Positions 11,990 through 26,439 of a stretch of 32,000 bases of DNA are shown one piece after another. The DNA is from Kiritimatiella glycovorans (GTDB lineage Bacteria > Verrucomicrobiota > Kiritimatiellia > Kiritimatiellales > Kiritimatiellaceae), in contig NZ_CP010904.1 of NCBI RefSeq assembly GCF_001017655.1, forward strand, positions 2,130,001 through 2,162,000, given 5' to 3'. The position numbers and the translations under genes were made by a program. The notes beneath the pieces were generated by a model, which was not told where the DNA came from, searched no databases, and was given only the letters and a program-made list of their open reading frames with translations. Each line of letters opens with the position of its first letter. Position 1 is the stretch's first letter.

Positions 11990-11990
11990 A

Positions 11991-12899
11991 TCAGTGTCCC
12001 TCTCTGCGCGCACGGGAGACGGTCTCCCACATCTCACGCGCCTGGTAGGAGGACCGGACCATCGGCCCGGAGGCCACGGCCTCGAAACCGCACTCGTGCG
12101 CGCGGCGGGCCCATTCCTCGAAACGCTCCGGCGGCACGAACCGCTGGACCGGCGCGTGCCCGCGCGTCGGCGCGAGGTACTGGCCCAGCGTGAGCGCCCG
12201 GCAGCCTGCGGCGTGCAGGTCGCGCAGCGATTGCCCGATCTCCGCGTCGGTCTCTCCGAGCCCGAGCATCAGGCCCGACTTTACGAGCACGGCTTCGCCT
12301 CCGCGCTCCGCGGCCGCGCGCAGCACGTCGAGTGAACACCCGTAAGAGGCCTCCGGACGCAGGGCGGGCTGGAGGCGTTCGACCGTCTCGAGGTTGTGGT
12401 TGAAGACCTCGGGGCCGGCGTCGATGACGCGGTCCACGCAGGCGCGGTCGCCTCCGAAATCCGGGGTGAGCACTTCCACGGTGACGCCGCCGGGCTCGTG
12501 CAGCCGCTCGATCGTACGCGCGAAAAGATCCGCGCCGCCGTCCGGGAGGTCGTCGCGCGTCACACTGGTCACCACCACGTGGCGCAGGTTCAAGCGCCGC
12601 GCCGCCTCCGCCACGCGCTCCGGTTCATCAGCCTGCGGCGGCGACTCCGGCCCGTGGGCCACTGCGCAGAATCTGCAGTTGCGCGTACAGCGGTCCCCGA
12701 GAATCATGAACGTGGCCGTGCCTCCGCTCCAGCACTCGTGCCGGTTCGGGCACTGCGCACTCCCGCACACGGTATGGAGTCCGAGTTCACTAAGGACCGC
12801 ACTCACACCCCGGTAGGCGTGCGCGGTGCGCAGCGGACGCCGGAACCACTCCGGCAGCCGCCCGTGCCCGGTCTCTTCCTGCCTGGTGCTACGCGTCAT
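11991..12899 (-). CDS. lipA: Lipoyl synthase
   Basis: Both cluster motifs are present: CGSAQCPNRHEC (auxiliary cluster region) and the radical-SAM CTRNCRFC. 302 aa. Confidence 0.95.
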   Translation of the reverse strand: MTRSTRQEETGHGRLPEWFRRPLRTAHAYRGVSAVLSELGLHTVCGSAQCPNRHECWSGGTATFMILGDRCTRNCRFCAVAHGPESPPQADEPERVAEAARRLNLRHVVVTSVTRDDLPDGGADLFARTIERLHEPGGVTVEVLTPDFGGDRACVDRVIDAGPEVFNHNLETVERLQPALRPEASYGCSLDVLRAAAERGGEAVLVKSGLMLGLGETDAEIGQSLRDLHAAGCRALTLGQYLAPTRGHAPVQRFVPPERFEEWARRAHECGFEAVASGPMVRSSYQAREMWETVSRARREGH

Positions 12900-12911
12900 A
12901 GGCCGTCCCGG

Positions 12912-15593
12912 TCAGGCGTTCCGCAGCGTGCCGATCAGCCGTTTCAGCTTGCGGCTCTTCTCCTGCAGCTCGCTTTTGCGCTGTTTCTGGGTGTCCACCA
13001 CTTCGCGCGGCGCTTTGTTCAGAAAGTTTTCATTTTCCAGCTTGCGGTTGACGGCCGTGAGCCCCTGTTCAACGGTCTCCAGCTGCTTATGGAGTTTCTG
13101 TATCTCGGCCTCGACATCGACGAGTCCCTCGATCGACATATAGACCGTGCCGAGACGGCTGATTCCGCTGGGCATCGCGCTTTCGGGATGGAATTCGCGG
13201 TCGACGACCACTTCAGCCGCCGGGAGCAGGTCGGCCACCGATCCGCGGTCCTCGTGCAGCATGTCCGCGAAGCGCTCCTGCGACGGGCGCACCCGGAAGG
13301 CCGGTCTCTGCTTCGGCTTGAGATCGTAGTCCGCGCGCAGGGTGCGGCCGACGCGGATGAGATCGTGTTTCGCCTCCACGTACTCGACCGTCGCGCGCCG
13401 GACGCCCCAGGGCTTCATCTCCTCGTATCCGAACGATTCCGGCCACTCGGCCGTCATGATGCTTGAAGACATCGCGGTGTAGCCCATGGCGTGCCAGAGT
13501 TCTTCGGTAAGGAACGGCATGATCGGGTGCAGCAGCCGCAGGGAGGCGCAGAGGACGTAGTGCATGACGCGGATGACGTCCTGCTTGCGCTGTTCGTCCT
13601 CCCCGTAGAACACGGATTTCGAATATTCGACATACCAGTCGCAGAAATTATGCCAGAGGAAGTCGTAGAGCGAGAGCGCGGCATCGTTGAACCGGAAACG
13701 CTCCAGGTTCTCGGACACCGAGGCGATCGTCTCGTTGAGCCGGGCGATGATATGCTGATCGTCCGGCTCCAGCGCCATCTCGTCGAACGGCGGACGGCGC
13801 GGATCGAACGCGGCGCCGTCGTCATTCATCTTCATGAAACGCGCCGCGTTCCAGATCTTGGTGCCGAAATTGCGCCCGATCTCGAATTTCTCGTCCGAGA
13901 GGTACACGTCCTGGCCGGTGGCGGTGAGCATGATCAGACTGAACCGCAGCGCGTCGGCGCTGTAGCGGTCGATGATATCCAGGGGGTCGATGGAATTGCC
14001 GAGGCTTTTGCTCATCTTCACGCCGTCGTCGTCGCGTACCGTCCCGTGGATATAGACGCGGCGGAAGGGGATATCGTCCATGAACTCGAGACCGGACATA
14101 ATCATGCGCGCGACCCAGAAGAAGATGATTTCCGAGGCCGTGACCAGCGTGTCGGTCGGATAGAACTGCTCCAGGTCCCGGCTCTCTTCGGGCCACCCGA
14201 ACACACTGAACGGCCACAGCCACGAAGAGAACCAGGTGTCGAGCACGTCCGGGTCCTGGCGGATCGCGCCGGAAGCGCACTTCGGGCAGACCTCCGGCGT
14301 GCCGCGGTCGGCCCAGACGTGGTCGCAGTCGTCGCAGTAGAACACCGGGATCCGGTGCCCCCACCAGATCTGGCGCGAGATACACCAGTCCCGGATGTTC
14401 GTCATCCAGTCCAGGTAGACCCGGGTCCAGCGTTCGGGGGTGAACTTGATGCGGCCGTCCTTGACGGCTTCGATCGCGGGACGCGCCAGCGGTTTCATCC
14501 GCACGAACCACTGCGGGGAGAGGCGGGGTTCGACCATCGTATCGCAGCGGTAGCAGTGCCCGATCGAGTGATCGTGTTCTTCGACTTTCTCCAGCAGGTT
14601 CTGTTCCTCGAGGTCTTTCAGGAGCTGCTCGCGGCACGCGAAACGGTCCATGCCCGCATACGGGCCGGCGGTCTCCGCCATCGTCCCGTCGTCCTCCATC
14701 ACATCGATCGGTTCCAGCTCGTGCCGCACCCCCATCTCGAAATCGTTGGGATCGTGCGCCGGCGTGACCTTGACGACCCCGGTGCCGAACTCGGGGTCGA
14801 CGAAATCGTCGGCGATGATCCTGAGTTCGCGGTTCAGGACCGGGAGCAGCACGGTCTGTCCGACGAGTCCCTCGTAGCGTTCATCGCGCGGGTTCACGGC
14901 CAGGGCGACGTCACCCAGCATCGTCTCCGGCCGGGTGGTGGCGACCCGCAGCCGCTTTTTGGATCCTTTGATCGGGTAGCGGAGATGATAGAGCTTGCCG
15001 TTGACGGGGCGATGCTCGCTCTCCTCGTCGGAGAGGGCGGTCCGGCAGCGGGGGCACCAGTTGATGATGTAGTGGCCGCGATAGATCAGGTTTTTCTCGA
15101 AGAGCCGGCAGAACACCTCCGTCACCGCGCGGCTCAGGCCCTCGTCCATGGTGAACCGTTCCCGGCTCCAGTCGCAGGACGCGCCGAGCTGTTTGAGCTG
15201 GTTGACGATCGTGCCGCCGTACTGATCCTTCCATTTCCAGACCTCTTCGAGGAAACGTTCGCGGCCGAGGTCCTCGCGCGTTTTACCTTCCTTGTGGAGC
15301 TTGCGTTCCACCACATTCTGGGTGGCGATCCCCGCATGGTCCGTACCCGGAACCCAGAGCGCCGCGCGACCCTGCATGCGCCACCAGCGGATCAGGACAT
15401 CCTGGATGGTATTGTTGAGCGCATGCCCCATGTGCAGAATGCCGGTCACATTGGGGGGCGGGATCACGATACAGGCCGGATCGCCCTGCCCCGCACCGGC
15501 CTCGAACAGCCCCTGTTCGCGCCAGTGACGGTACCACCTGGGCTCCACCTGCTTCGGATCGTACGTCTTCGCCATTTCGGTCATAGCCATCAT
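12912..15593 (-). CDS. valS: Valine--tRNA ligase
   Basis: PPPNVTGILHMGHALNNT (HIGH-type), KMSKSLGN and a C-terminal coiled coil. The ORF is open to 15623. Start chosen at the MMAMTEMAKTYDP cluster; the exact start is uncertain (15575-15623). Confidence 0.93.
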   Translation of the reverse strand: MMAMTEMAKTYDPKQVEPRWYRHWREQGLFEAGAGQGDPACIVIPPPNVTGILHMGHALNNTIQDVLIRWWRMQGRAALWVPGTDHAGIATQNVVERKLHKEGKTREDLGRERFLEEVWKWKDQYGGTIVNQLKQLGASCDWSRERFTMDEGLSRAVTEVFCRLFEKNLIYRGHYIINWCPRCRTALSDEESEHRPVNGKLYHLRYPIKGSKKRLRVATTRPETMLGDVALAVNPRDERYEGLVGQTVLLPVLNRELRIIADDFVDPEFGTGVVKVTPAHDPNDFEMGVRHELEPIDVMEDDGTMAETAGPYAGMDRFACREQLLKDLEEQNLLEKVEEHDHSIGHCYRCDTMVEPRLSPQWFVRMKPLARPAIEAVKDGRIKFTPERWTRVYLDWMTNIRDWCISRQIWWGHRIPVFYCDDCDHVWADRGTPEVCPKCASGAIRQDPDVLDTWFSSWLWPFSVFGWPEESRDLEQFYPTDTLVTASEIIFFWVARMIMSGLEFMDDIPFRRVYIHGTVRDDDGVKMSKSLGNSIDPLDIIDRYSADALRFSLIMLTATGQDVYLSDEKFEIGRNFGTKIWNAARFMKMNDDGAAFDPRRPPFDEMALEPDDQHIIARLNETIASVSENLERFRFNDAALSLYDFLWHNFCDWYVEYSKSVFYGEDEQRKQDVIRVMHYVLCASLRLLHPIMPFLTEELWHAMGYTAMSSSIMTAEWPESFGYEEMKPWGVRRATVEYVEAKHDLIRVGRTLRADYDLKPKQRPAFRVRPSQERFADMLHEDRGSVADLLPAAEVVVDREFHPESAMPSGISRLGTVYMSIEGLVDVEAEIQKLHKQLETVEQGLTAVNRKLENENFLNKAPREVVDTQKQRKSELQEKSRKLKRLIGTLRNA

Positions 15594-15641
15594 CCCGCTG
15601 AAGTTCGCCCGCCCCGCACGCATTCGGAGCGGAACAGAGGT

Positions 15642-17246
15642 TCACGCTCCGCCGCCGCCCTCGGGGCCGCTCTCTTCCTCCAGGAAGAGCTTGTACTCCA
15701 CGCTGTCCACGAGCGCCTCCCAGGAGGCCTCGATGATATTCTCCGAGACCCCGACGGTACCCCAGACGCGCCGGCCGTCGCCCGATTCGATCAGCACCCG
15801 CGTGCGCGCGGCCGTGGCCTCCTCCGGATCGAGGATGCGGACCCGATAGTCCTTGAGCACCACGTCTGCGATCGAAGGGTAGAAACGCATCAGCGCCTTG
15901 CGCAGCGCCTGGTTGAGCGCGTCCACCGGACCGTCGCCCTCGCCCACGGTGAACTCCGTCTCCCCGCCGACGTTCACCTTGACGGTGGCCTCCGACATGC
16001 AGGGCTCGCTCTTGCTCCGCTTCTCGACCATCACCCGGAAGGCCTCGAGATCGAAAAAGGTCTTGTGCGACTTGAGCACCTTCTTGATGAGCATCTGGAA
16101 CGAGGCATCGGCCGACTCGTATTCGTAGCCTTCGCGTTCGAGCTTTTCGAGCTGCTTGAGCACCTCGCGCACCTCGGGCGACTTGCGGTCGACATCAATC
16201 CCCATCTCCACGGCTTTGAGAAAGACGTTGCTCGCGCCCGAGAGCTCGGAGATCAGGACGCGGCGCTGGGCCCCCACCTTTTCCGGTTCGATATGCTCGA
16301 AGCTCGCCGGGACCTTGCGCACGCCGTCGACGTGCATCCCCGCCTTGTGCGCGAAGGCGTCGTCGCCCACGTAGGGCGCTTTGGGATAGGGACGCATGTT
16401 GGCCTCTTCCCACATGAAGCGGGCCAGCGATTTGAGGTGGCGGAGCGATGCTTCGCCGCACAGACAGTCGCAGCCCATCTTGTAGAACAGCGCGGGCGCG
16501 ATCGATACGAGGTTGGCGTTGCCGCACCGCTCGCCGATCCCGTTGATCGTTCCCTGGACGTGGGTGGCTCCGGCGCGCACCCCGGCGAGGCTGTTGGCCA
16601 CACCGAGTTCGGCGTCGTTATGCGCGTGCACGCCCAGCGGCGTCGTGCAGGCCTCCGCCACCGCCTCGGTGACGGCATGGATCTCCTCGGGGAGCGACCC
16701 CCCGTTCGTATCGCAGAGCACCAGACGGTCGGCCCCGCCCTCTTCCGCGGCCTTGAGCGTCTTCAGGGCGTACCCGGGATCGTCCCTGTACCCGTCATAG
16801 AAGTGCTCGGCATCGTAGATCACCTCGCGGCCCTGTTCCTTGAGGAAGCGGACCGAGTCGCGGATCATCGCCAGATTCTCGTCCTCCGTGGTACACAGGA
16901 CCTCGCGCACGTGCAACAGCCAGCTCTTGCCGAAAATCGTGCAGACGGGCGTCTGCGCCTCGATCAGCGCCTGCAGACCGCGGTCCTCGGACGCGGCGGT
17001 ATGCGCGCGCCGCGTGCTCCCGAACGCCGCCAGGCGGGCGTGACTCAAGCCCTCCTCGCGCAGCCGCCGGAAGAACTCCATGTCCTTGGGATTCGACGCC
17101 GCGTACCCGCCCTCGATCACATCGATGCCGAATTCATCGAGGCGGCGGGCGATGCGCAGCTTGCCCACCAGCGAAAACGATACGCCGGCGGCCTGCTCGC
17201 CGTCGCGCAGCGTCGTGTCATAGATTTCAATGCGTTGCTTGTTCAT
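15642..17246 (-). CDS. cimA: Citramalate synthase / 2-isopropylmalate synthase family protein (CimA-type length and N-terminus)
   Basis: Start MNKQRIEIYDTTLRDGEQAAGVSFS (ATG 17246). HxH region GVHAHNDAELGVANSLAG. 534 aa with a LeuA-dimer-type C-terminal domain. Assignment to CimA rather than LeuA is by resemblance only. Confidence 0.7.
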   Translation of the reverse strand: MNKQRIEIYDTTLRDGEQAAGVSFSLVGKLRIARRLDEFGIDVIEGGYAASNPKDMEFFRRLREEGLSHARLAAFGSTRRAHTAASEDRGLQALIEAQTPVCTIFGKSWLLHVREVLCTTEDENLAMIRDSVRFLKEQGREVIYDAEHFYDGYRDDPGYALKTLKAAEEGGADRLVLCDTNGGSLPEEIHAVTEAVAEACTTPLGVHAHNDAELGVANSLAGVRAGATHVQGTINGIGERCGNANLVSIAPALFYKMGCDCLCGEASLRHLKSLARFMWEEANMRPYPKAPYVGDDAFAHKAGMHVDGVRKVPASFEHIEPEKVGAQRRVLISELSGASNVFLKAVEMGIDVDRKSPEVREVLKQLEKLEREGYEYESADASFQMLIKKVLKSHKTFFDLEAFRVMVEKRSKSEPCMSEATVKVNVGGETEFTVGEGDGPVDALNQALRKALMRFYPSIADVVLKDYRVRILDPEEATAARTRVLIESGDGRRVWGTVGVSENIIEASWEALVDSVEYKLFLEEESGPEGGGGA

Positions 17247-17366
17247 CGACTCACCCTCCCGACGCATCGGCCGTCCCGGACCGCTTCCCCGCCGCCCTGT
17301 CGCAGAACAGCGGCACGGGACGCCGCGCACACGGCGCGACTGGAAAGATTCAACTCCTCCGGCGGG

Positions 17367-18578
17367 TCACTCGAGTTCGAAGGATTTATGAAGGACGCGC
17401 ACCGCCTCGTCCGCGGAATCCCGGGCGATGACAATCGAGATTTTGATTTCGGAGGTGGAGATCATGCCGATGTTGATTCCGTGTTCGGCCAGCGCGGAGA
17501 ACATGCGCGAGGCGACGCCCGAGTGGCTCTTCATGCCGATGCCGACGATGCTGACCTTGGCGATGTCCTCGTCGAAATCGACGCCCTGCGCCTCGAGTTC
17601 CCGGGACAGTTCGTCCGCGGCGGTCTTTGCGCGCTTCATGTCCGAGACGGGGATCGTGAACGAGATATTGGTATGCCCTTCCTCGCTCACGTTCTGGACG
17701 ATCATGTCCACGTTGACATCATGGTCCGCCAGCCGGTGAAACACCCGGGCGGCGACGCCGGGACTGTCCGGCACGCCGTGAAGGGTGACCTTGCACTGCC
17801 CTTTATCCGCCGCGATTCCGCGTACGACTACATCTTCCATCGAACTATCTCCTTCCACGATCTCCGTGCCGGGGCTTCGCTTGAAACTGGAGAGCACTTC
17901 GAGCCGGACGCCGTATTTCTTGGCGATCTCCACCGAACGGGAGTGCAGAACTTTGGCGCCGAGGCTCGCCAGTTCGAGCACCTCATCGCAGGTGATCCGG
18001 TCCAGCTTGCGCGCACCGGAACAGATGCGCGGGTCGGTCGTGTAGACCCCGTCGACATCCGTGAAAATCTGGCATTTGTCAGCCTCCAGGGCCGCGGCCA
18101 GGGCCACCGCGGTGGTGTCCGAGCCGCCCCGACCCAGCGTCGCCACGTCCGAGGCGGGCGTCAGCCCCTGGAATCCCGCGATGATCACCACGCGCCCGAA
18201 TCCGAGCGCCTGGTGCACGCGCGCGGGATCGATGCCCGTGATCTTCGCCCGCGTGTGGGCCGCATCCGTGCGGATCCCCGCCTGGGGCCCGGTCATCGAG
18301 ACCGCCTCACAGCCCATCGCATGCAGCGCCATGGTCAAAACTGAACTGGAGATCTGCTCGCCCGCCGCCATGAGCTGATCCATCTCGCGGTCGTCCGGAC
18401 TCGCATGCACCTCCTGCGCAAGCTGAATCAGCTCGTCGGTGGTGTCGCCCATCGCGCTCACGACCACGACCACGTCGTTCCCCGCTTCGCGGGTCTCGTG
18501 AATCCGCTGCGCCACCCGGCGCATGCAGTCCGCATCCGCGACCGAAGATCCGCCGTATTTCTGTACGATCCGTGCCAT
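17367..18578 (-). CDS. lysC: Aspartate kinase (monofunctional, two C-terminal ACT domains)
   Basis: MARIVQKYGGSSVADADCMRRVA...VVVVSAMGDTTDELI...GRGGSDTTAVALAAAL. 403 aa. Confidence 0.95.
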   Translation of the reverse strand: MARIVQKYGGSSVADADCMRRVAQRIHETREAGNDVVVVVSAMGDTTDELIQLAQEVHASPDDREMDQLMAAGEQISSSVLTMALHAMGCEAVSMTGPQAGIRTDAAHTRAKITGIDPARVHQALGFGRVVIIAGFQGLTPASDVATLGRGGSDTTAVALAAALEADKCQIFTDVDGVYTTDPRICSGARKLDRITCDEVLELASLGAKVLHSRSVEIAKKYGVRLEVLSSFKRSPGTEIVEGDSSMEDVVVRGIAADKGQCKVTLHGVPDSPGVAARVFHRLADHDVNVDMIVQNVSEEGHTNISFTIPVSDMKRAKTAADELSRELEAQGVDFDEDIAKVSIVGIGMKSHSGVASRMFSALAEHGINIGMISTSEIKISIVIARDSADEAVRVLHKSFELE

Positions 18579-18791
18579 ACCGTCCCCCGGAATATCCCCG
18601 CCTGTTAACCGGATTTACCGGGCCAATGCAACCCAAAAGCACCGGGCTTTCGGCGCGCGAGGACATTAAAACCCAGTCCGAACCACACCCTCGCATTTTC
18701 CTCATCAGCATCAAACAGACAGAGGTTCCAATCAGCCCATTCCGGCAGCGTCCCGAACTCCCGGCCCAGCGCAAAAAAAACCGCACCCCCC

Positions 18792-19745
18792 GACTGCCAT
18801 GACTCTTCCACGCTACGCCCGAGGCAACGGCCTTCGGCCTCGAGAAAACGCTCCGCTCGTGAAAACGGCGGCTTTCCCGACTGCCACGAAATCCCCCGAC
18901 TGCCACGATCTTCCACGCTACGCTCGAGGCAACGGCCTTCGGCCTCGAGGAAACGCCCCGCTCGTGAAAACGGCGGCTTTCCCGACTGCCACGACATCCC
19001 CCGATCCCCCCGATTGCCACGAGGCCCGTGAGGGCCGTTGCCACGATTTCCCCGATTGCCACGATCTTCCACGCTACGCCCGAGGCAACGGCCTTCGGCC
19101 TCGAGGAAACGCCCCGCTCGTGAAAACAGCGGCTTTCCCGACTGCCACGAAATCCCCCGATCCCCCCGATTGCCACGAGGCCCGTGAGGGCCGTTGCCAC
19201 GATTTCCCCGATTGCCACGATCTTCCACGCTACGCCCGAGGCAACGGCCTTCGGCCTCGAGAAAACGCTCCGCTCGTGAAAACGGCGGCTTTCCCGACTG
19301 CCACGAAATCCCCCGACTGCCACGACTGCCACGATTTCCTCGATTGCCACGATCCCCCGACTGCCACGATCTTCCACGCTACGCTCGAGGCAACGGCCTT
19401 CGGCCTCGAGGAAACGCTCCGCTCGTGAAAACGGCGGCTTTCCCGATTGCCACGAACCCCCCCGACTGCCACGATCTTCCACGCTACGCCCGAGGCAACG
19501 GCCTTCGGCCTCGAGGAAACGCTCCGCTCGTGAAAACGGCGGCTTTCCCGATTGCCACGAACCCCCCCGACTGCCACGATCTTCCACGCTACGCTCGAGG
19601 CAACGGCCTTCGGCCTCGAGAAAACGCTCCGCTCGTGAAAACGGCGGCTTTCCCGACTGCCACGATTGCCACGATCCCCCCGACTGCCACGACATCTCCC
19701 GATCCCCCCGATTGCCACGAGGCCCGTGAGGGCCGTTGCCACGAC
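18792..19745 (+). repeat. Complex unidirectional tandem array: 7 copies of an ~86-nt core, 3 copies of a GNRA-hairpin module, 24 perfect copies (+1 variant) of the octamer TGCCACGA
   Basis: Cores (cttccacgctacgcYcgaggcaacggccttcggcctcgagRaaacgcYccgctcgtgaaaacRgcggctttcccgaYtgccacga) start at 18805, 18910, 19066, 19222, 19371, 19476 and 19581, with only five variable positions. Module gattgccacgaggcccgtgagggccgttgccacga starts at 19012, 19168 and 19710. Octamer starts are listed under findings. All copies are on one strand and there are no unique spacers. Confidence 0.95.
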
Positions 19746-19769
19746 CTCCCCGCCTGCCCCGATTCCCCC

Positions 19770-21158
19770 ATGATCACCCCTGCCCTTCACCCCGACGATG
19801 CATGGCCGGTCACCGAGCGCCACCTGCAGGCGATCTGGTATGACCGGGCGCTGCGCCCGGACCGTCTGACCACAACGGCGGGGGTCCCTGTGCGCGTGGT
19901 TCATCCGGGACGCTGGAACCTCGAGGCGGGGCCGGACTTCATGGATGCCCGGGTCCTGATCGGCGACCCGCCGCGGCCCGTGGCCGGTGACGTGGAAGTG
20001 CACCTCCGCGCGGCGGACTGGGCACGGCACGGTCATGACGCCGACCCCCGGTACTCAAAGGTTCGGGTTCACGTGACGCTCCATGCCGGGAGCGCCCCCC
20101 GGCTCCCGCTTCCACCGGGCTGCGAGGAGATCGCCCTGGCCTCCTTTCTGGAAGAAGACCTCGAGCGGATCTGCGAGCGCATCGACGTCCACTCCTATCC
20201 CTATCTCAAGCTCCCGTCGCCGACCCGCTGCGGAGAACTCCTTTCCGGCCGCCCCCCGGAGTTCAAAAGCGCGCTGCTCGAGGCGGCCGGCCGGCAGCGG
20301 ATGCGGAGGCGCATCGATCGTTTCACCGCGCTCCGCGAACGGCACGGCGCCGCCGAGACGCTGTACCGCGAACTCATGGCCGGTCTCGGCTACCGCGTGA
20401 ACAAAAGCGCGTTCCGCCGGGTGGCCGAGGCCGTTTCGCTCGAGCGCCTACGCGCCGCCGGCGGCCCTCTCGCGGCGACGGCCGTACTGACCGGCGCGGC
20501 CGGACTGCTCCCCGATCCCGCCGATCCGCGTCTGACGGAGGAATCGCGCCGCCGCGCACGGATCCTCTGGGACCTCTGGTTTGTGCGCAAACCGGTCTGG
20601 ACCCCGCCGCTGCCCGGACGGGACGACTGGTGCGCGGCCTCGCGTAGACCGGCCAACGAGCCCGCCCGCCGCCTGGCCGCCGCCGCGCTGTGGTTCGGAC
20701 CTTCCCCGGGACTCGAGGAACGACTGGCTGCGGCGCCCGCCGCCGATGCCGGGGGATTCATACGCAGGGCGATGGAGGAGCTGACCGCGCCGCGCGACCC
20801 GTTCTGGGAACGGCACTGGACGTGGACCTCGGCTTCGCGGCAGGCGCCGACGGCGCTCATCGGTCCGGGCCGCGCCCGAACCCTGCTGATCAACAGCGTC
20901 ATCCCCTGGCGGCTCGCCGGTCCGGAGCCCCGCTCGGAATGCGAAACCTGTTTCCGCACCATGCCCGCCGAACCCTGGAACAGCACCCTCCGCCGCGCGG
21001 CGCGTCTCGTCCTCGGCCCCGACCACCCGTCCACGCTCTGCGCCTCCGCACTCGCGCGACAGGGCCTGATCGAGCTGCACGACCGCTACTGCCTGCCCGC
21101 GCGCGGCGTCTGCGACCAGTGTCGGCTTCCGAAAGCTATCTGTGAGTGGGAACCCTGA
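19770..21158 (+). CDS. DUF2851-family protein
   Basis: Start taken at ATG 19770 (MITPALHPDDAWPVTERHLQAIWYD...), in frame with track ORF 19194..21158, whose first 192 codons are array repeats. GDVEVHLRAADWARHGHDADPRYSKVRVHVTLH matches the DUF2851 core as I recall it. Confidence 0.8.
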   Translation: MITPALHPDDAWPVTERHLQAIWYDRALRPDRLTTTAGVPVRVVHPGRWNLEAGPDFMDARVLIGDPPRPVAGDVEVHLRAADWARHGHDADPRYSKVRVHVTLHAGSAPRLPLPPGCEEIALASFLEEDLERICERIDVHSYPYLKLPSPTRCGELLSGRPPEFKSALLEAAGRQRMRRRIDRFTALRERHGAAETLYRELMAGLGYRVNKSAFRRVAEAVSLERLRAAGGPLAATAVLTGAAGLLPDPADPRLTEESRRRARILWDLWFVRKPVWTPPLPGRDDWCAASRRPANEPARRLAAAALWFGPSPGLEERLAAAPAADAGGFIRRAMEELTAPRDPFWERHWTWTSASRQAPTALIGPGRARTLLINSVIPWRLAGPEPRSECETCFRTMPAEPWNSTLRRAARLVLGPDHPSTLCASALARQGLIELHDRYCLPARGVCDQCRLPKAICEWEP

Positions 21159-21159
21159 G

Positions 21160-21375
21160 TGGAAGGTTCGACGTAAACTTTTTTGGGGTGTACGACGGGA
21201 AATCCGCTCGCGTCACATCGTATTCGTACTCACCGAAGCGGTACTCGTCCTCGATTTGCCGGTTTGGAAAAGGGATCGCGCCTTCGGCGCTCCGAGTACG
21301 CGTACGAGTACGAGTACGAGCAGGAATTATGTTCACCCCCCTCACCAACCTTCATGCTCTTCATGTCCTTCATGG
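21160..21375 (+). repeat. Copy C of the dispersed hairpin-element family
   Basis: Collinear with copy B from ggaaggttcgacgtaaactttt (degenerate end) through aaatccgctcgcgtcacatcgtattcgtactc, gggatcgcgccttcggcgctccgagtacgcgtacgagtacgagtacgag and attatgttcacccc...cttcatgctcttcatg. Confidence 0.75.
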
Positions 21376-21399
21376 TGAATCCCGATCCCCCCCCGTGGT

Positions 21400-21465
21400 T
21401 TCTCTGACTCTCCTTTCTTACTCAGGTTTCAGGTTTCAGCTTTCTCACTCATACCTTCACTCAGA
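21400..21465 (+). repeat. Single hexamer/heptamer module related to the 10286-10600 repeats
   Basis: tctctgactctcc followed by cttactcaggtttcaggtttcagctttctcactca, compared with cttactcaggtctcaggtttcaggtctctcactca at 10381-10415. Confidence 0.7.
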
Positions 21466-21541
21466 TTTCCAACCTTGATTCCCGCCGCCCATTGCATTAC
21501 GTCATATGGGCTCACGAAACGGCGGGCGGAGGATATCGCGG

Positions 21542-22822
21542 ATGAAAGTACTGGTCGTGGGAAGCGGAGGACGCGAGCACGCGCTTGTGCGGACGCTGGC
21601 GTCTTCGCCCCGGAAGCCCGAACTCCTCTGCGCCCCCGGAAATGCCGGCACGGCCCGTCTCGCCCGCAATCTTCCCGTCAAAGCGACCGACCTCGACGGC
21701 CTGGTGTCGTGCGCCCGCGCTGAACGACCCGACCTTACCGTGATCGGTCCCGAAGCACCGCTCTGTGCCGGGCTCACCGATGCGCTGGAGGCCGAAGGAC
21801 TCGCGGTCTTCGGCCCTTCGAAGGAGGCCGCCCGCCTCGAGGGGAGCAAAATCTTCGCCAAGGAAATCATGCAGGCCGCCGGCGTACCCACCGCGCGGGC
21901 CGAGTCGTTCGACGACCCCGCGGCCGCCTGCGCCTGTCTGCGCGAACACGGAGCGCCGGTCGTGGTCAAGGCCGACGGCCTCGCCGCCGGCAAGGGCGTG
22001 ACCGTGTGCGCCTCGATCGACGAGGCCGAGCGCGCGGTGCGTGAGGCCCTCGAGGAGAAGCGTTTCGGGGACGCCGGGGGCTGCGTCCTGATCGAAGACT
22101 GCCTCCGCGGCGAAGAGGCGTCGATCCTGGCCCTCACCGACGGCGAGACCGTGGTGCCGCTGGCTTCTTCGCAGGACCACAAGCGCGCGTACGACGGCGA
22201 CCGGGGTCCGAACACGGGGGGAATGGGAGCCTACTCGCCCGCGCCGGTCGTCAGCGAGGACGTATGGCGCCGGGTCATGGACGACATCTACCGCCCCACG
22301 CTGGCCGAACTCCGGCGGCGCGGCATCCGCTACAAGGGCGTGCTCTATGCGGGACTGATGATAGAACACGGTCGGCCGCGCGTGGTCGAATTCAACTGCC
22401 GCTTCGGCGATCCCGAGACGCAGGTCGTCCTTCCGCGCCTCGATAGCGACCTTCTCCCCGCGCTGCAGGCCTGCGTCGATGGAGATCTGGCCTCGGTCGA
22501 GCCGCAGTGGAAATCCGAGGCCTGCGTGTGTGTGGTCATGGCCTCGGGCGGCTATCCGGGGCCTTACGAGAAAGGGCTCCCGATCGAAGGCCTGAACGCG
22601 GCCGAAGAAGCCGGGACGATCGTCTTTCACGCCGGGACGGATGCGGATCCCGAAGGCCGGGTCGTCACCGCCGGCGGCCGCGTACTGGGCGTCACCGCCC
22701 TGGGCGCGACGCTCAAGACCGCGGTCGCCTCCGCCTACCGCGGGGCGGGAAAGATCTCCTGGGATCATGCTTTTTATCGAACCGACATAGCCCACCGCGA
22801 ACTGGAAAGGGAGGAACCATGA
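21542..22822 (+). CDS. purD: Phosphoribosylamine--glycine ligase
   Basis: Start MKVLVVGSGGREHAL (ATG 21542, GGAGGA RBS). ATP-grasp core and C-terminal GGRVLGVTA. The stop overlaps the purE start (ATGA). Confidence 0.95.
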   Translation: MKVLVVGSGGREHALVRTLASSPRKPELLCAPGNAGTARLARNLPVKATDLDGLVSCARAERPDLTVIGPEAPLCAGLTDALEAEGLAVFGPSKEAARLEGSKIFAKEIMQAAGVPTARAESFDDPAAACACLREHGAPVVVKADGLAAGKGVTVCASIDEAERAVREALEEKRFGDAGGCVLIEDCLRGEEASILALTDGETVVPLASSQDHKRAYDGDRGPNTGGMGAYSPAPVVSEDVWRRVMDDIYRPTLAELRRRGIRYKGVLYAGLMIEHGRPRVVEFNCRFGDPETQVVLPRLDSDLLPALQACVDGDLASVEPQWKSEACVCVVMASGGYPGPYEKGLPIEGLNAAEEAGTIVFHAGTDADPEGRVVTAGGRVLGVTALGATLKTAVASAYRGAGKISWDHAFYRTDIAHRELEREEP

Positions 22823-23337
22823 CGCAGAAAAACGGAAAGAAGATCGGAATTGTGATGGGAAGCCGCTCCGACTGGAAGACCATGGAGCACACCGTCTCCA
22901 CGCTTCAGTCCTTCGACCTCGAGTGCGAGGTGCGGGTCATGTCCGCGCACCGGACGCCGGAGGACGCCGCCGAATGGGCGCGCACCGCGCGGGAGCGCGG
23001 CCTGAAAGTTATTATCGCCGCCGCGGGCGGAGCCGCCCACCTCGGGGGCGTCGTTTCGGCGCATACCTCGCTGCCCGTGCTGGGCATTCCGCTGCAGGGC
23101 TGGGCGCTGGACGGCATGGACGCGCTGCTCTCCACGGTGCAGATGCCGAAAGGCATCCCGGTCGGGACGCTGGCGATCGGCAAGGCGGGCGCCATCAACG
23201 CGGCCATGCTCGCGATCCGGATTCTCGCCCTCGAAGACGACACGCTTCAGCTGAAGCTCGAAGAACATCGCGACCGGATGGCCGAAGAAACGCGCCATGC
23301 CGATCGGGGCCTCAATGAGGAACTGGACGGCTCCTAG
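22819..23337 (+). CDS. purE: 5-(carboxyamino)imidazole ribonucleotide mutase
   Basis: [19 protein letters not shown]...[10 protein letters not shown]...[27 protein letters not shown]. 172 aa. Confidence 0.93.
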
Positions 23338-23455
23338 GGCCCCGAAGAAGCGCAGAAGAGTTGTCCGGCCACCCCAGGGCACAGGAAGCACAGAAAAGTT
23401 CTTTGGGCCACGTAGAGGCACCCTGGGCACAGAAGAGAAGTCCAGCCAGTGAATT

Positions 23456-24517
23456 ATGAGTGAACACGCCGTCATTGATCCCGTAAATCCGGACCCGGCC
23501 CTGCTGGACCGGGCGGCGCGTCTTCTCCACGACGGCGAACTCGTGGTCCTGCCCACGGAGACCGTGTACGGAGTGGCGGCGGATGTGCGGGCGCCCGGGG
23601 CCCGCAGCCGGCTCTTTGCCGCCAAGGGAAGGCCGGCGGGGAAACCCTTCGCCCGGCTCGCGGTCGATATCGATCAGGTGGAAAAAGACGGCGCCGAAGT
23701 GGGCGAATTCGCCCGGTCGCTGGCGGACGCCTTCTGGCCCGGCCCGCTTACGCTCGTTCTGCCCACGGAATGGGCGCCGCGGGGGTATCGCGCCCCGGAT
23801 CATGCCGTACCCCAGGGGGTCGGGCGGCGGCTCGGGCCCCAGGTCGCTCTGACCAGCGCCAACCGCAGCGGACAGCCGCCGGCCTGCACTGCGGACGAAG
23901 CGGTCGCCGGACTGGACATCAAGCCGGCGCTCGTGCTGGACGCGGGACCCTCCAGCGGCACGCCGAGCACCGTGGTCAGCCTCGCACACGGCTATCCCGA
24001 ATTGCTGCGCGAGGGCACGATTCCCTTCGACCGGATTGAAGCCGCCTGCACGGGGGCGCGACGACGGGTCATCCTCTTCGTCTGCACCGGAAATACGTGC
24101 CGCAGCCCGATGGCCGAACACCTGTTCCGCGAACGGCTGGGGGATCGCGCCGAATGGTCCGCGCAGTCCGCCGGCATCAGTGCGGCCGAAGACATGCCCG
24201 CGACGCAAAACGCGGTCCATGTGCTCCGGGAGAAGGGGATCGACATGTCCGGCCACCTCAGCCGGCGGCTGACGACCGCCCTCGTACGCGATTCGGATCT
24301 GATCGTGACGATGACGGCCGCCCAGCGGGAGGAAGTCTGCCGGCTGGCCCCGGAATGCGCGAGCCGGGTCAAACTGCTGACCTCGTTCCACGTAAACGGC
24401 GGCGGCGAGGATGTTCACGATCCGATAGGCGGCGATGAAGAGGCCTACCGGCAGGTCAGGGACCGTATCGACAGCGCGCTCTCGGATCTGATACTCTATC
24501 TGCTTGATTACGTGTGA
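23456..24517 (+). CDS. tsaC: Fusion protein: TsaC/YrdC-domain L-threonylcarbamoyladenylate synthase (aa 1-~200) + YwlE-like low-molecular-weight phosphatase (aa ~203-353)
   Basis: N-domain: VLPTETVYGVAADV, AKGRPAGKP, LTSANRSG. C-domain: VILFVCTGNTCRSPMAEH (CX5R P-loop with Thr as in B. subtilis YwlE) and VHDPIGGDEEAYRQVRDRI (DP loop). Single uninterrupted 353-aa frame. Confidence 0.85.
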   Translation: MSEHAVIDPVNPDPALLDRAARLLHDGELVVLPTETVYGVAADVRAPGARSRLFAAKGRPAGKPFARLAVDIDQVEKDGAEVGEFARSLADAFWPGPLTLVLPTEWAPRGYRAPDHAVPQGVGRRLGPQVALTSANRSGQPPACTADEAVAGLDIKPALVLDAGPSSGTPSTVVSLAHGYPELLREGTIPFDRIEAACTGARRRVILFVCTGNTCRSPMAEHLFRERLGDRAEWSAQSAGISAAEDMPATQNAVHVLREKGIDMSGHLSRRLTTALVRDSDLIVTMTAAQREEVCRLAPECASRVKLLTSFHVNGGGEDVHDPIGGDEEAYRQVRDRIDSALSDLILYLLDYV

Positions 24518-24542
24518 ACGAAAGAATGGGTAAGGAGATTGC

Positions 24543-26225
24543 ATGAAGATCGCTATCGGCGCCGACCACGGCGGCTACGAGCTGAAACAGGAGATCATCG
24601 AACGACTCGGGAAACGCAAAGGCCTCGAGATTGAAGACTGCGGCTGCCACAGCCGGGAGTCGGTGGATTATCCCGACTACGCCCGCGACGTGGCCGGAAA
24701 AGTTTCGGAAGGCTCGGTCGACGAAGGCATCGTGGTCTGCACGACCGGCGTCGGCGTTTCCATGACCGCCAACAAATTTCCCCACGTCCGCGCCGCGCTG
24801 TGCGTTACGCCGCACATGGCCACGATGGCCCGCCGGCACAATAAAGCCAACGTCCTGTGCATGGGCTCGACCACCGTCGAAGGCGAGGCCGTGCCGGGCA
24901 TCCTCGAGGCCTGGTTCGCGGCGGAGTTTGAAGGCGGGCGGCATCAGCGCCGCGTGGACAAGATATCCCAGTGCGAAACGACGCTCGCGGAACTGATCGC
25001 CCTCTACGACACGGATCCGGAAGTCTACAGCGGCGTGCGCGCCGAAGACCGGCGCCAGGAGGAGAACCTGGAACTGATCGCCTCCGAGAACATGGCCTCC
25101 CGCGCCGTGCGCCAGGCGCAGTCCTCGCGCATGACCAATAAATACGCCGAGGGCTATCCCGGGAAGCGCTGGTACAACGGATGCGAGTGCGTCGACGAGA
25201 TCGAGCGCCTCGCCATCGACCGCGCCCGGGAGATCTTCGGCGGGGAACACGTCAACGTCCAGCCCCACAGCGGCAGCGCCGCGAACATGGCGGCCTATTT
25301 CTCCGTGCTCGAACCCGGCGACACCATGCTGGCGATGAGCCTCGCGGAAGGGGGCCACCTCACCCACGGTCACCCGATGAATTTTTCGGGGCGGTTCTTC
25401 AATATCGTCCCCTACGGGGTCGACGAAAAGACCGAGCAGATCGATTACGACCGCCTGGCGGAGCTGGCCTCCGAACACAAGCCGAAGATGATCGTCGCCG
25501 GCGCCAGTGCGTATTCGCGGCTGATCGACTTCAAGCGGCTGCGCGCGATTGCCGACGACGTCGGGGCGTACCTCACGGTCGACATGGCGCACATCGCCGG
25601 ACTCGTCGCCGCGGGTTGCCATCCGAACCCGGTGCCGTATGCCGAGTTCGTGACGACGACGACCCACAAGACGCTGCGCGGGCCGCGCGGCGGCATGGTG
25701 CTGTGCCGTGAGGCCTTCGCGAAGGAAGTCGACCGCCAGGTCTTTCCCGGCATCCAGGGCGGGCCGCTGATGCACACCATCGCGGCCAAAGCCGTCTGCT
25801 TCCACGAGGCGCTGCAGCCGGAGTTCAAGACCTACCAGCAGCAGGTGGTGCGCAACGCGCAGGAACTCGCCGCCGCCCTCCAGGAACAGGGTATCCGGAT
25901 CGTGTCCGGCGGGACTGACAATCACCTGATGCTCGCCGACCTGACCTCGGTCGAGATCTCCGGAAAGGACGCCGCCAACGCGCTGGATAAGGCGTCGATC
26001 ACGGTGAATAAGAACTCGATCCCGTTCGACGGCAAGAGCCCCTTTGTGACCTCCGGCATCCGGCTGGGCACGCCCGCGGTGACGACCCGCGGCATGGGTC
26101 CGGAACAGATGCGGGAGATCGCCGGGCTGATCGCGGACCTGCTGCAGAACGCGTCGGACCGCAAGACCATCGCGCACGTGCGCGAAAAGGTCCTGCACAT
26201 GACGTCCCAGTACCCGCTCATCTAG
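24543..26225 (+). CDS. glyA: Fusion protein: RpiB/LacAB-type ribose-5-phosphate isomerase B (aa 1-~143) + serine hydroxymethyltransferase (aa ~150-560)
   Basis: N-domain: [37 protein letters not shown]-domain: [32 protein letters not shown]-lysine box [23 protein letters not shown] before ATG 24543. No stop between the domains. Confidence 0.9.
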
Positions 26226-26395
26226 CCCGCGGAAACCGGGGCTTGCACCGGGCGCATTCCTGTGTTACGCACGGGTCCACCTGAGGTGAGGAGCGGCATC
26301 CGAACCCGAGGGTACAACCCGACCGCTGAGTGTGCGATCTGAGACCCGGGAGAGCGGAGCTCTCCCGTCATTCGAGGAACGCGCGCGGGACGCCG

Positions 26396-26426
26396 CTCCG
26401 CAGCCTGAGGCTGACGGAGTTTTTTT
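26396..26426 (+). terminator. Strong rho-independent terminator / attenuator hairpin immediately upstream of the hydrogenase-maturation operon
   Basis: CTCCG-CAGCC-tga-GGCTG-a-CGGAG: 10 bp with one bulged A and a 3-nt loop, followed by T7 (26420-26426). It lies 170 nt after the glyA stop and only 13 nt before ATG 26440, with the GGGAGGG RBS in between. Confidence 0.8.
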
Positions 26427-26439
26427 GCGGGAGGGTGTC

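What the first reader, a model, noticed from the sequence alone, without database searches (positions are those of the whole stretch)
18792..19745. Unidirectional ~950-bp array of seven near-identical hairpin units and 24 perfect TGCCACGA octamers between lysC and DUF2851
Seen directly:
- Seven ~86-nt cores start at 18805, 18910, 19066, 19222, 19371, 19476 and 19581 (period 105 or 149-156). They differ at only five positions.
- Each core can form CGAGGC/GCCTCG enclosing GGCC-TTC-GGCC, and CCGCT-N9-GGCGG.
- The longer periods come from an extra module (starts 19012, 19168, 19710) with a perfect GGCCC-GTGA-GGGCC GNRA-type hairpin. The reverse complement of that module (GGCAACGGCCctcacGGGCCTCG) resembles the core hairpin (GGCAACGGCCttcgGCCTCG).
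- The octamer TGCCACGA (usually GAYTGCCACGA) occurs on one strand at 18882, 18901, 18987, 19015, 19039, 19057, 19143, 19171, 19195, 19213, 19299, 19318, 19327, 19345, 19362, 19448, 19467, 19553, 19572, 19658, 19667, 19685, 19713 and 19737. A variant TGCCATGA is at 18795. I did not see the perfect octamer anywhere else in the window on this strand. The nearest match is TGCCACGC at 9301.

Why the obvious explanations fail:
- It is not a CRISPR array. There are no unique spacers and no cas genes.
- It is not credibly coding. All six frames are open and repetitive, and none has a start context.

Inference: such a dense, oriented, highly homogenised array is either an iteron-type protein-binding platform (centromere-, origin- or regulator-like) or a tandem battery of small structured RNAs. 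A recently amplified satellite is the null hypothesis. I know of no described element with this unit.
Basis: partly seen in the sequence, partly recalled or inferred. Interest (0 to 1): 0.8.

Follow-up and report, generated by a model that had tools for sequence, protein, structure and literature searches.

The report
Species-specific dispersed mosaic repeat array
The 1-kb stretch between lysC and DUF2851 is a real, non-coding array of an oriented 8-base motif and small hairpins. It is not unique to this spot: related arrays sit at four or more other regions of the same Kiritimatiella glycovorans chromosome and in no other organism searched, so it is a new family of interspersed repeat DNA rather than a lysC-specific control element.

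Summary
There are 24 perfect TGCCACGA octamers, all on the + strand and all within 18882-19744, against 1.6 expected by chance. There are seven 85-nt cores that differ at five columns, and three GGCCC-GTGA-GGGCC modules.

The whole stretch 18792-19769 parses into four module types: a 9-bp iteron, a 9-10-bp C-tract spacer, a 77-bp core and a 24-bp hairpin module. It ends directly at the ATG of DUF2851. It is non-coding, matches no Rfam family, and folds no better than shuffled sequence.

The source is Kiritimatiella glycovorans. Translating the array and searching protein databases found only five K. glycovorans 'hypothetical proteins': L21SP4_00612, 01247, 02129, 02319 and 02323. Each is a G-rich-strand read-through of a related but diverged array. 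Each reads the octamer in all three frames and carries the same hairpins, with stems kept and loops varied.

So this is one member of a species-restricted, multi-locus family of mosaic repeat arrays. The arrays are homogenised within each locus and diverged between loci. The closest analogues in kind are BIME and NIME arrays, but it belongs to neither.

The octamer is the conserved element and is probably a protein recognition site. That step is inference. Origin, centromere, CRISPR and structured-RNA-battery readings are not supported. The rest of the source genome could not be scanned.

The parts
18792..19769 (+). Whole mosaic array. It is an unbroken chain of four module types, all in one orientation. 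The + strand is C-rich (GC skew -0.21 to -0.40).
   Evidence: Tokenisation. Sequence. Skew. TRF periods 105/149/156.
18882..19744 (+). 24 perfect octamers TGCCACGA, i.e. the 9-bp iteron GAYTGCCAC plus the next module's GA. Spacings are 9, 17, 18, 19, 24, 28 or 86 bp. A degenerate copy TGCCATGA lies at 18795 and CCTGCCCCGA at 19752-19761.
   Evidence: The same octamer is read in three frames (SWQS / VA[VI]G / RG[SN]R) 51 times in five paralogous arrays.
18801..18878 (+). Core 1 (78 bp, edge copy with one extra base). Holds hairpin H1 at 18820-18842 (CGAGGC..GCCTCG / GGCC-TTC-GGCC).
18907..18983 (+). Core 2 (77 bp). H1 at 18925-18947.
19063..19139 (+). Core 3 (77 bp). H1 at 19081-19103.
19219..19295 (+). 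Core 4 (77 bp). H1 at 19237-19259.
19368..19444 (+). Core 5 (77 bp). H1 at 19386-19408.
19473..19549 (+). Core 6 (77 bp). H1 at 19491-19513.
19578..19654 (+). Core 7 (77 bp). H1 at 19596-19618.
19021..19044 (+). H2 module 1: GAGGCCC-GTGA-GGGCCGTTGCCAC. It is an inverted relative of the core hairpin and is fused to an octamer.
19177..19200 (+). H2 module 2.
19719..19742 (+). H2 module 3.
17367..18578 (-). Left flank: lysC (aspartate kinase with ACT domains). It is the last gene of a minus-strand block running 2698-18578.
   Evidence: Pfam AA_kinase 2e-54 plus ACT. Block orientation.
19770..21158 (+). Right flank: DUF2851 gene, whose ATG directly abuts the last array module. It is the first gene of a plus-strand block.
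   Evidence: Pfam DUF2851 4.5e-47. 100% identical to K. glycovorans AKJ65085 / WP_052882351.
18579..18791 (.). Non-repetitive part of the divergent intergenic region. It holds a terminator-like hairpin on the minus strand (18656-18639, then TTTTGGG) and an A8/T8 run at 18770-18777 next to the array edge.

Best explanation
The stretch is one copy of a Kiritimatiella glycovorans-specific family of non-coding interspersed mosaic repeat arrays.

Each array is about 1 kb. It is a one-directional chain of four module types:
- a 9-bp iteron carrying the octamer TGCCACGA (TCGTGGCA on the G-rich strand);
- short C-tract spacers;
- a core of about 77 bp with a GC-rich palindromic hairpin (H1);
- a 24-bp module with a second hairpin (H2) that is an inverted relative of the first.

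Shown:
- Arrays grow and are homogenised locally by slippage or unequal recombination. The evidence is near-identical higher-order units, 9-bp iteron doublets and decayed edge copies.
- Arrays diverge between loci.
- Across loci only the octamer, its 19-bp-spaced pair and the hairpin stems stay constant.

Inferred:
- The octamer is the recognition site of a trans-acting DNA-binding protein. This could be the recombinase or transposase that spreads or maintains the family, or a nucleoid protein.
- The hairpins act structurally as extrudable or single-strand hairpins, as in REP/BIME and NIME arrays.
- At this locus the array has no lysC- or DUF2851-specific role. Its only local consequence is that it occupies the whole 5' region of DUF2851, so any DUF2851 promoter must lie in or beyond it.
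For: Anatomy:
- Complete tokenisation into four modules, all in one orientation.
- 24 of 24 octamers are perfect in at least 8 different sequence contexts, while adjacent spacers vary in length and sequence.
- Both edges of the array are degenerate.

Dispersal within the genome:
- A six-frame translation of the array hit only three proteins among 5.8 billion. All three are K. glycovorans hypothetical proteins.
- An exhaustive HMMER search of 1.84 billion representatives with one of them (P0121) added two more from K. glycovorans and nothing credible from other organisms.
- None of the five is encoded in the window. tblastn hits centre on and always include the array (a few alignments run up to ~0.7 kb into the G+C-rich flanks), only on the minus strand, at 29-45% identity.
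- Their locus tags (00612, 01247, 02129, 02319, 02323) are far from the window, which sits at about tag 0185x by interpolation of accession numbers.

DNA-level rather than protein-level conservation:
- The octamer is read in all three frames inside each ORF, giving 16, 11, 12, 5 and 7 copies.
- No Pfam domain passes threshold.
- P0124 and P0125 carry only GenBank AKJ accessions and no RefSeq WP accession.

Hairpins across loci:
- H1 is GGCC-GAA-GGCC in the window and GGCGC-G[A/C/T]A-GCGCC elsewhere. Both arms changed together and the loop centre is free.
- H2 keeps its stem (NGPxGP) while the loop residue varies: H, C, R, D or Y.

Concerted evolution:
- Exact internal repeats of 27-49 aa recur at 312-540-nt periods in four of the five other arrays. 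Only 10 aa is repeated in the most decayed one.

Restriction to this species:
- No counterpart in 185,579 species genomes (iteron-pair pattern).
- None in JGI metagenomes (core 22-mer), IMG/VR, plasmids or phages.

Genome background:
- The genome paper reports 75 transposase genes and 12 putative genomic islands, and does not mention repeat arrays (PMC5148204).
Against: - No DNA of the other loci could be read, because the source genome is not in the searchable collections. Their structure is inferred from single-frame translations. Copy number, orientation and gene context genome-wide are unknown.
- No binding protein, recombinase or RAYT-type gene is identified. None is in the window.
- Perfect octamers could partly reflect rapid birth by 9-bp slippage rather than selection. 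Iteron doublets at 19315-19332 and 19655-19672 show that this process operates.
- Hairpin arm co-variation can arise by template switching within a palindrome, without selection.
- Only arrays that happened to be annotated as ORFs are detectable, so the count is a lower bound. The 02319 and 02323 ORFs may belong to one region.
Confidence: 0.6

Rival explanations
1. Neutral minisatellite family. The arrays are junk DNA that expands and contracts by slippage and unequal crossing-over. The octamer is conserved only because new copies keep being made from old ones. Nothing binds it.
For: - Higher-order repeat structure, decayed edges and 9-bp doublets.
- Arrays of different 'ages' at other loci.
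- The same 32-kb window holds two other unrelated intergenic repeat arrays: hexamer arms at 9426-9548 and CT-rich 6-mer and 47-mer arrays at 10285-10546. This genome therefore tolerates or generates such DNA.
Against: - Octamers are mostly single copies embedded between different modules, not long runs. Yet all 24 are perfect while flanking bases and spacers differ.
- The octamer, the 19-bp pair and the hairpin stems survive between loci whose cores have diverged to 29-45% identity in translation.
Confidence: 0.25
2. Tandem battery of small structured or C-rich (anti-Shine-Dalgarno-type) RNAs, or a long structured leader, transcribed from the array.
For: - Hairpin stems are kept with paired changes across loci.
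- DUF2851 has no room for its own promoter, so part of the + strand is probably transcribed.
- The 148-nt unit folds better than shuffles on the + strand (z = -3.3), because H1 and H2 are inverted copies.
- Weak terminator-like sites occur on the minus strand in 3 of the 7 cores.
Against: - No Rfam hit at the gathering threshold, and none on the array itself up to E=10; the two sub-threshold hits (E 3.8 and 5.2, far below gathering) lie at its left edge or outside it.
- 105-nt units fold no better than shuffles on either strand, as RNA or DNA (z from -0.5 to -1.7).
- No sigma-70-like promoter anywhere in 18300-20000.
- The five variable core columns show no compensatory pattern.
Confidence: 0.1
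3. Locus-specific chromosomal platform: a replication origin, a centromere-like site, or a regulator array for lysC/DUF2851.
For: - The array lies exactly where a minus-strand gene block (2698-18578) and a plus-strand block (19770-31000) diverge.
- The iterons are dense, oriented and roughly helically phased.
Against: - Related arrays occur at four or more other regions.
- No DnaA box lies within 11 kb.
- No AT-rich stretch; GC is at least 0.56 throughout.
- No dnaA, dnaN, par or rep gene in the window.
- DUF2851 orthologues elsewhere have short upstream regions, different neighbours, and no octamers or non-coding arrays.
Confidence: 0.04
4. Protein-coding repeat. The paralogues are annotated as hypothetical proteins, and UniProt labels one 'collagen triple helix repeat'.
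For: - A 462-aa ORF (18307-19695, minus strand) is open across the array.
- Five paralogous ORFs are annotated in GenBank.
Against: - The same DNA motif is read in all three frames within each ORF.
- The 149-nt period is not a multiple of three.
- The window ORF overlaps the first 270 nt of lysC.
- No Pfam hit passes threshold; the collagen match scores 19 bits against a 27-bit cut-off.
- No homologue outside this one species among 1.84 billion representatives.
Confidence: 0.01

Closest known systems
NIME arrays (neisserial intergenic mosaic elements: dRS3 repeats flanking RS elements)
   Same: - Long non-coding intergenic arrays of about 1 kb at many loci of one genome.
- A short conserved repeat recurs between longer, more variable 50-150-bp modules.
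- Arrays vary in repeat number.
- The short repeat is proposed, and for Nf phages shown, to be a recombinase target (PMC1797815).
   Different: - dRS3 is a 20-bp inverted repeat, ATTCCCN8GGGAAT. It is absent here.
- Here the short unit is a 9-bp direct, one-directional iteron.
- Modules are few and near-identical within an array, not drawn from more than 100 RS families.
- The phylum is different.
- No link to surface-antigen genes is seen at this locus.
REP / BIME (repetitive extragenic palindromes in bacterial interspersed mosaic elements)
   Same: - GC-rich imperfect palindromes in extragenic DNA, combined with short linker motifs into mosaic clusters.
- Species-specific sequence.
- Known to bind host proteins (PMC2817692).
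   Different: - BIMEs have regularly spaced REPs in alternating orientation and more than 100 copies per genome (PMC2817692). Here 7 H1 hairpins point one way and only 3 H2 are inverted.
- Only about 5-6 places are detected.
- No 5'-GTAG-hairpin arrangement. The CTAC/GTAG next to H1 is not kept at other loci, where SEAWK replaces SGVAWK.
- No RAYT gene in the window.
- REP/BIME has nothing like the dominant direct iteron.
Plasmid and phage iteron arrays (origins, incompatibility loci, and type Ib/II partition centromeres such as parC)
   Same: Arrays of short, same-orientation, perfectly repeated protein-binding sites with roughly helical phasing. This comparison rests on my own knowledge and was not tested here.
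   Different: - Those arrays have 3-12 sites next to their rep or par gene, often with DnaA boxes and an AT-rich region.
- Here there are 24 sites per array, several arrays per chromosome, no rep or par gene, no DnaA box and no AT-rich region.
MIRU-type bacterial minisatellites (VNTR loci)
   Same: Tandem intergenic units of about 50-150 bp at multiple loci of one genome, evolving by copy-number change. This comparison rests on my own knowledge.
   Different: - MIRUs are simple head-to-tail units, often translationally coupled to flanking genes.
- Here the arrays are mosaics of four module types with an embedded invariant octamer.
- Strain polymorphism could not be tested.

Membership tests
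CRISPR array | Direct repeats separated by unique spacers of similar length | tested here: not met
   Every segment between octamers is itself one of four repeated module types.
CRISPR array | cas genes nearby | tested here: not met
   Pfam annotation of the window ORFs shows only housekeeping genes.
REP/BIME | Imperfect GC-rich palindromic unit of about 20-40 bp in extragenic DNA | tested here: met
   H1 (CGAGGC..GCCTCG, 23 nt) occurs 7 times and H2 (GGCCC-GTGA-GGGCC) 3 times, all intergenic.
REP/BIME | Regularly spaced units in alternating orientation within a cluster | tested here: not met
   All 7 H1 are in the same orientation. H2 is inverted relative to H1 but present in only 3 units.
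REP/BIME | High copy number (more than 100 per genome), dispersed | not testable with these tools
   The source genome is not in the searchable collections. Only 5 other ORF-bearing places can be inferred. There is no other copy in the 32-kb window.
REP/BIME | Conserved GTAG at the 5' foot of the palindrome and an associated RAYT transposase | tested here: not met
   GTAG lies 3' of H1 on the G-rich strand and is replaced at other loci (SGVAWK versus SEAWK). No Y1-transposase domain is found in the window ORFs. Genome-wide presence of a RAYT is untestable.
NIME | dRS3 repeat ATTCCCN8GGGAAT flanking RS elements | tested here: not met
   0 matches with up to 1 mismatch in the window. Definition from PMC1797815.
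Chromosomal origin (oriC) | Cluster of DnaA boxes (TTWTNCACA) | tested here: not met
   One match in 32 kb, at 6927, and none near the array.
Chromosomal origin (oriC) | AT-rich unwinding element; single locus per replicon | tested here: not met
   GC is at least 0.56 in every 100-nt bin from 18300 to 20100. Related arrays occur at four or more other regions.
Iteron-type plasmid origin or partition centromere | Iterons adjacent to the cognate rep or par gene | tested here: not met
   No rep or par domain in the window. No similarity to any plasmid or phage record.
Any Rfam RNA family | Covariance-model match | tested here: not met
   0 hits at the gathering threshold in the window. With E up to 10, only two chance-level hits appear at or beside the array's left edge.
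Multi-locus bacterial minisatellite (MIRU/VNTR-like) | Tandem 40-150-bp intergenic units at several loci | tested here: met
   Periods of 105/149/156 here. Periodic arrays at four or more other regions.
Multi-locus bacterial minisatellite (MIRU/VNTR-like) | Copy-number polymorphism between strains | not testable with these tools
   No second strain or close relative exists in the databases. The nearest DUF2851 homologue is 43% identical.

The most novel reading that the evidence does not exclude
The dispersed arrays, carrying at least 75 copies of one oriented octamer at 5 or more chromosomal regions, are a functional chromosomal iteron system. In this reading they are binding platforms for a lineage-specific DNA-binding protein. 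That protein would either organise, partition or titrate (in the manner of parS, datA or incA), or be a hairpin- and iteron-directed recombinase that builds the arrays by site-specific self-insertion. The second case would make this a new type of non-autonomous mobile element.
Probability: 0.15. Interest if true: 0.7.

Novelty: new variant of a known kind. Interest (0 to 1): 0.4.

Why it matters
Kiritimatiella glycovorans is the first cultured representative of its lineage (PMC5148204), and its non-coding DNA has not been described.

A species-restricted repeat family with an invariant, one-directional octamer and hairpins whose arms co-vary would be a useful handle for several things:
- finding the protein that recognises the octamer;
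- strain typing, since the arrays should behave as VNTR loci;
- correcting annotation, because at least five GenBank 'hypothetical proteins', one labelled collagen-like in UniProt, are read-throughs of these arrays.

It also shows that the apparent link to lysC and DUF2851 is incidental. If no binder exists, this is simply another example of interspersed mosaic repeats, which are widespread in bacteria.

Tried and rejected
- **Full-text search for the octamer on either strand**. It returned only primers and unrelated sequences.
- **Searches on K. glycovorans** for 'tandem repeat', the genome paper and its supplements. No mention of the arrays; no supplements are held.
- **The look-up of encoding contigs** for lysC, DUF2851 and P0121. 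None is on record, so no DNA from the rest of the genome could be read.
- **Genome-contig scan** with the iteron-pair pattern. It gave 93 stretches.
  - None has the core.
  - The inspected ones are 9/15/27-bp repeats, several of which look like coding repeats. One, the Verrucomicrobiota MAG L152, was checked by ORF analysis and encodes a TTPAA linker.
  - K. glycovorans itself was not returned. The other arrays should have matched the pattern, so the genome is not in the collection.
- **metagenome scan** with the core 22-mer. Three hits with no octamers in the contig and unrelated flanking sequence.
- **IMG/VR scans**. These returned unrelated tandem repeats and single chance hairpin matches. 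One phage group (L032, L051, L060, L073) has ATCGTGGCA iteron pairs in a divergent intergenic region next to a small HTH protein. The shared octamer was the search key, so this is not evidence of relatedness.
- **blastn against plasmids and phages**. No match.
- **Third search for homologous proteins** with a 905-aa chimera of the paralogues. It returned nothing, not even the sequences themselves, so it is uninformative.
- **'GCGNAGC' mini-hairpin idea** (GNA triloop on the G-rich strand inside the core). Dropped: 2 of the 7 window cores read GGG instead of GGA, one paralogue also varies there, and the stem is only 2 bp.
- **Sigma-54 and sigma-70 promoter readings of the iteron.** The spacing does not fit by inspection, and the scan found 0 promoter-like sites.
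- **oriC reading.** Rejected.
- **CsrA-sponge and Rho-loading (C-rich rut) ideas.** Considered but untestable here, and not adopted.
Full report
**1.

The window contains 24 exact TGCCACGA octamers. All are on the + strand, all lie between 18882 and 19744, and none occurs elsewhere on either strand. Dinucleotide-preserving shuffles give 1.56 on average and at most 6. Tandem Repeats Finder reports periods of 105, 149 and 156.

Over the 85 nt through the octamer they differ at five columns, all transitions. The three GGCCC-GTGA-GGGCC modules are present, and they are 16-17-nt inverted partial copies of the core hairpin. The core 20-mer has no further copy in the 32 kb even with three mismatches.

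Four corrections are needed:
- The array runs from 18792 to 19769 and ends directly at the ATG of DUF2851.
- Only one of the six frames is open across the array.
- The gene to the right begins at 19770.

**2. Anatomy**

The 978 bp parse without remainder into four module types. Each begins with GA after a C:
- a 9-bp iteron, GAYTGCCAC;
- a 9-10-bp C-tract spacer, GAnnnCCCC(C);
- a 77-bp core;
- a 24-bp module, GAGGCCC-GTGA-GGGCCGTTGCCAC.

These combine into higher-order units of 105, 149 and 156 bp. Octamer spacings are 9, 17, 18, 19, 24, 28 or 86 bp.

Both ends of the array are degenerate. At the left end there is TGCCATGA and a core with one extra base. At the right end there is CCTGCCCCGA. 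This edge decay is the usual signature of arrays homogenised by unequal exchange.

The + strand is C-rich throughout, with GC skew from -0.21 to -0.40. The arms of the core hairpin are themselves inverted one-mismatch variants of the iteron (TGCCTCGA versus TGCCACGA). The whole array therefore looks as if it was built from one 9-bp motif; this is read directly from the sequence.

**3. What it is not**

- *Not coding.* The 149-nt period breaks the reading frame. The one long ORF (18307-19695, minus strand) overlaps 270 nt of lysC and has no Pfam domain.
- *Not CRISPR.* There are no unique spacers and no cas genes.
- *Not a known RNA family.* There are 0 Rfam hits at the gathering threshold. With E up to 10 there are only two chance-level hits, at or beside the array's left edge.
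- *No sign of unusual folding.* Single 105-nt units fold no better than shuffled sequence on either strand, as RNA or DNA (z from -0.5 to -1.7). Only the 148-nt unit on the + strand stands out (z = -3.3), and that is because H1 and H2 are inverted copies of each other.
- *No per-unit transcription signals.* No sigma-70-like promoter is found in 18300-20000. Three weak terminator-like sites lie in cores on the minus strand.
- *Not an origin.* There is no DnaA box within 11 kb and no AT-rich stretch. No dnaA, dnaN, par or rep gene is in the window. This holds even though the array sits exactly where a minus-strand gene block (2698-18578) and a plus-strand block (19770-31000) diverge.

**4. Source and relatives**

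The DUF2851 protein is 100% identical to that of Kiritimatiella glycovorans, on a contig of 2,949,723 bp. The next best homologue is only 43% identical, so no close relative exists in the databases.

In three other Kiritimatiellia lineages the DUF2851 gene has different neighbours, no lysC, and an upstream gap of 0-243 bp. Those loci have no octamers and no non-coding tandem arrays. The array is therefore not a conserved feature of this gene pair.

**5. The key result: the family is dispersed within the same genome**

The source genome cannot be read with the DNA tools. Exact-protein look-ups fail, and the genome scan did not return it.

I therefore translated the array in all frames and used the chimera as a protein query. 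Among 5.8 billion proteins it hit only three, all 'hypothetical proteins' of K. glycovorans. An exhaustive HMMER search of 1.84 billion cluster representatives with one of them added two more from the same species, plus one spurious TPR protein.

| Protein | Locus tag |
|---|---|
| P0121 | L21SP4_01247 |
| P0122 | L21SP4_02319 |
| P0123 | L21SP4_02129 |
| P0124 | L21SP4_02323 |
| P0125 | L21SP4_00612 |

None of the five is encoded in the window. By tblastn their hits centre on and always include the array (a few alignments run up to ~0.7 kb into the G+C-rich flanks), all on the minus strand, at 29-45% identity. Interpolating GenBank accession numbers places the window near tag 0185x, far from all of them.

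These 'proteins' are read-throughs of the G-rich strand of related arrays:
- They contain SWQS, VA[VI]G and RG[SN]R, which are TCGTGGCA read in frames 1, 2 and 3, at 16, 11, 12, 5 and 7 copies.
- They contain the 19-bp-spaced iteron pair (RG[SN]RG.SWQSG).
- They contain LEAEGR / RPKAV / RGRRP, which are hairpin H1 read in three frames.
- They contain NGPxGP, which is hairpin H2.

One DNA motif read in all three frames inside a single ORF means the conservation is at the DNA level. Consistent with this, no Pfam domain passes threshold, and P0124 and P0125 carry only GenBank accessions, with no RefSeq one.

**6. What is kept and what drifts between loci**

- The octamer is kept.
- H1 is GGCC-GAA-GGCC in all seven window cores. 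At other loci it is often GGCGC-G[A/C/T]A-GCGCC. This is pinned by three reading frames (EARSAV, RGA[K/Q]RR, RR[E/A/V]AP). A base pair has been added on both arms and only the central loop base varies.
- H2 keeps its stem, while the loop codon is H here and C, R, D or Y elsewhere. The 'GNRA' loop is therefore not a conserved feature.
- Four of the five other arrays carry exact internal repeats of 27-49 aa at periods of 312-540 nt. The L21SP4_02129 array has decayed to 10-aa repeats.

Arrays are therefore homogenised within a locus and diverge between loci.

**7. Outside this species**

- The iteron-pair pattern found 93 stretches in 185,579 species genomes. None has the core. Those examined are 9/15/27-bp repeats, several of which look like coding repeats; one of them (L152) was checked by ORF analysis and is a coding repeat.
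- The core 22-mer found three hits in JGI metagenomes, with no octamers in the contig and unrelated flanking sequence.
- IMG/VR, plasmids and phages gave nothing related.
- The paper describing the organism reports 75 transposase genes and 12 putative islands, and does not mention such repeats (PMC5148204).

**8. Interpretation**

*Shown:* this is one member of a species-restricted, multi-locus family of non-coding mosaic repeat arrays that evolve in concert within each locus.

*Inferred:*
- The octamer stays perfect in at least eight different local contexts here and persists at loci whose cores have diverged. It is therefore the constrained element and most likely a protein recognition site.
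- The hairpins, whose arms change together, matter as hairpins or palindromes.
- The closest analogues in kind are NIME arrays (short conserved repeat between longer modules, proposed recombinase target; PMC1797815) and REP/BIME clusters (PMC2817692).
- It is a member of neither. dRS3 is absent. The hairpins do not alternate. No GTAG foot or RAYT gene is seen. The dominant element is a direct, one-directional iteron.

The neutral-satellite reading remains a serious rival. Its support is 9-bp slippage doublets, two other unrelated intergenic repeat arrays in the same window, and arrays of different ages. The structured-RNA battery and the locus-specific platform are weakly supported or contradicted.

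**9. Limits**

- The other loci are known only through single-frame translations.
- Genome-wide copy number, orientation and gene context could not be examined.
- No expression or binding data exist.

The decisive test is a scan of the complete chromosome, followed by RNA-seq and a pull-down with the iteron pair.

Noticed in passing
window 9426-9548: An intergenic palindrome between folD (8218-9105, minus strand) and a DUF167 gene (9661-9981, plus strand). Arms of tandem hexamers, (GTACTC)n and (GAGTAC)n, are 18-20 nt long and 95-100% complementary. They flank a spacer of about 65 nt that holds its own GCGCC-TTC-GGCGC hairpin. This is a second, unrelated repeat structure in a divergent intergenic region.
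   Followed up: partly
window 10285-10546: A CT-rich, strongly strand-asymmetric array: about 14 copies of CTGMCT followed by 3.6 copies of a 47-bp unit. It lies between the stop of a small-multidrug-export-like gene and the start of a NifU-like gene (start at 10236, minus strand). With the other two arrays, this makes three different non-coding repeat arrays in 32 kb.
   Followed up: partly
K. glycovorans proteins P0121-P0125 (L21SP4_01247, 02319, 02129, 02323, 00612): GenBank 'hypothetical proteins' that are read-throughs of repeat arrays. UniProt names one of them 'Collagen triple helix repeat'. These are likely mis-annotations.
   Followed up: yes
window 18639-18656 (minus strand) and 18770-18777: A terminator-like hairpin, GCGCCGAAAGCCCGGTGC followed by TTTTGGG, lies about 60 nt upstream of the lysC start. 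A T8 run (on the minus strand) lies at the array edge. Together they could be a lysC leader or attenuator. No lysine riboswitch was detected by Rfam.
   Followed up: partly
window 24543-26225 and 23456-24517: Two apparent gene fusions: ribose-5-phosphate isomerase B (LacAB_rpiB) fused to serine hydroxymethyltransferase in one 560-aa ORF, and Sua5/YciO/YrdC fused to a low-molecular-weight phosphotyrosine phosphatase domain.
   Followed up: no
L060 7600-7990 (IMG/VR contig 3300030095_004398); also L032, L051, L073: A group of viral contigs carries clusters of ATCGTGGCA / TGCCACGATT iterons, often as 9-bp-spaced pairs in both orientations. In L060 they lie in a divergent intergenic region next to a 144-aa protein with an N-terminal HTH (phrog_645). 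This may be a phage operator, origin or packaging site. The shared octamer was the search key, so no relationship to the window is implied.
   Followed up: partly
L152 5288-5590: A Verrucomicrobiota MAG has a 15-bp TGCCACGACGCCGGC array interrupted by an assembly gap. It encodes a TTPAA-type low-complexity linker in a 575-aa protein, so it is a coding repeat unrelated to the finding.
   Followed up: yes
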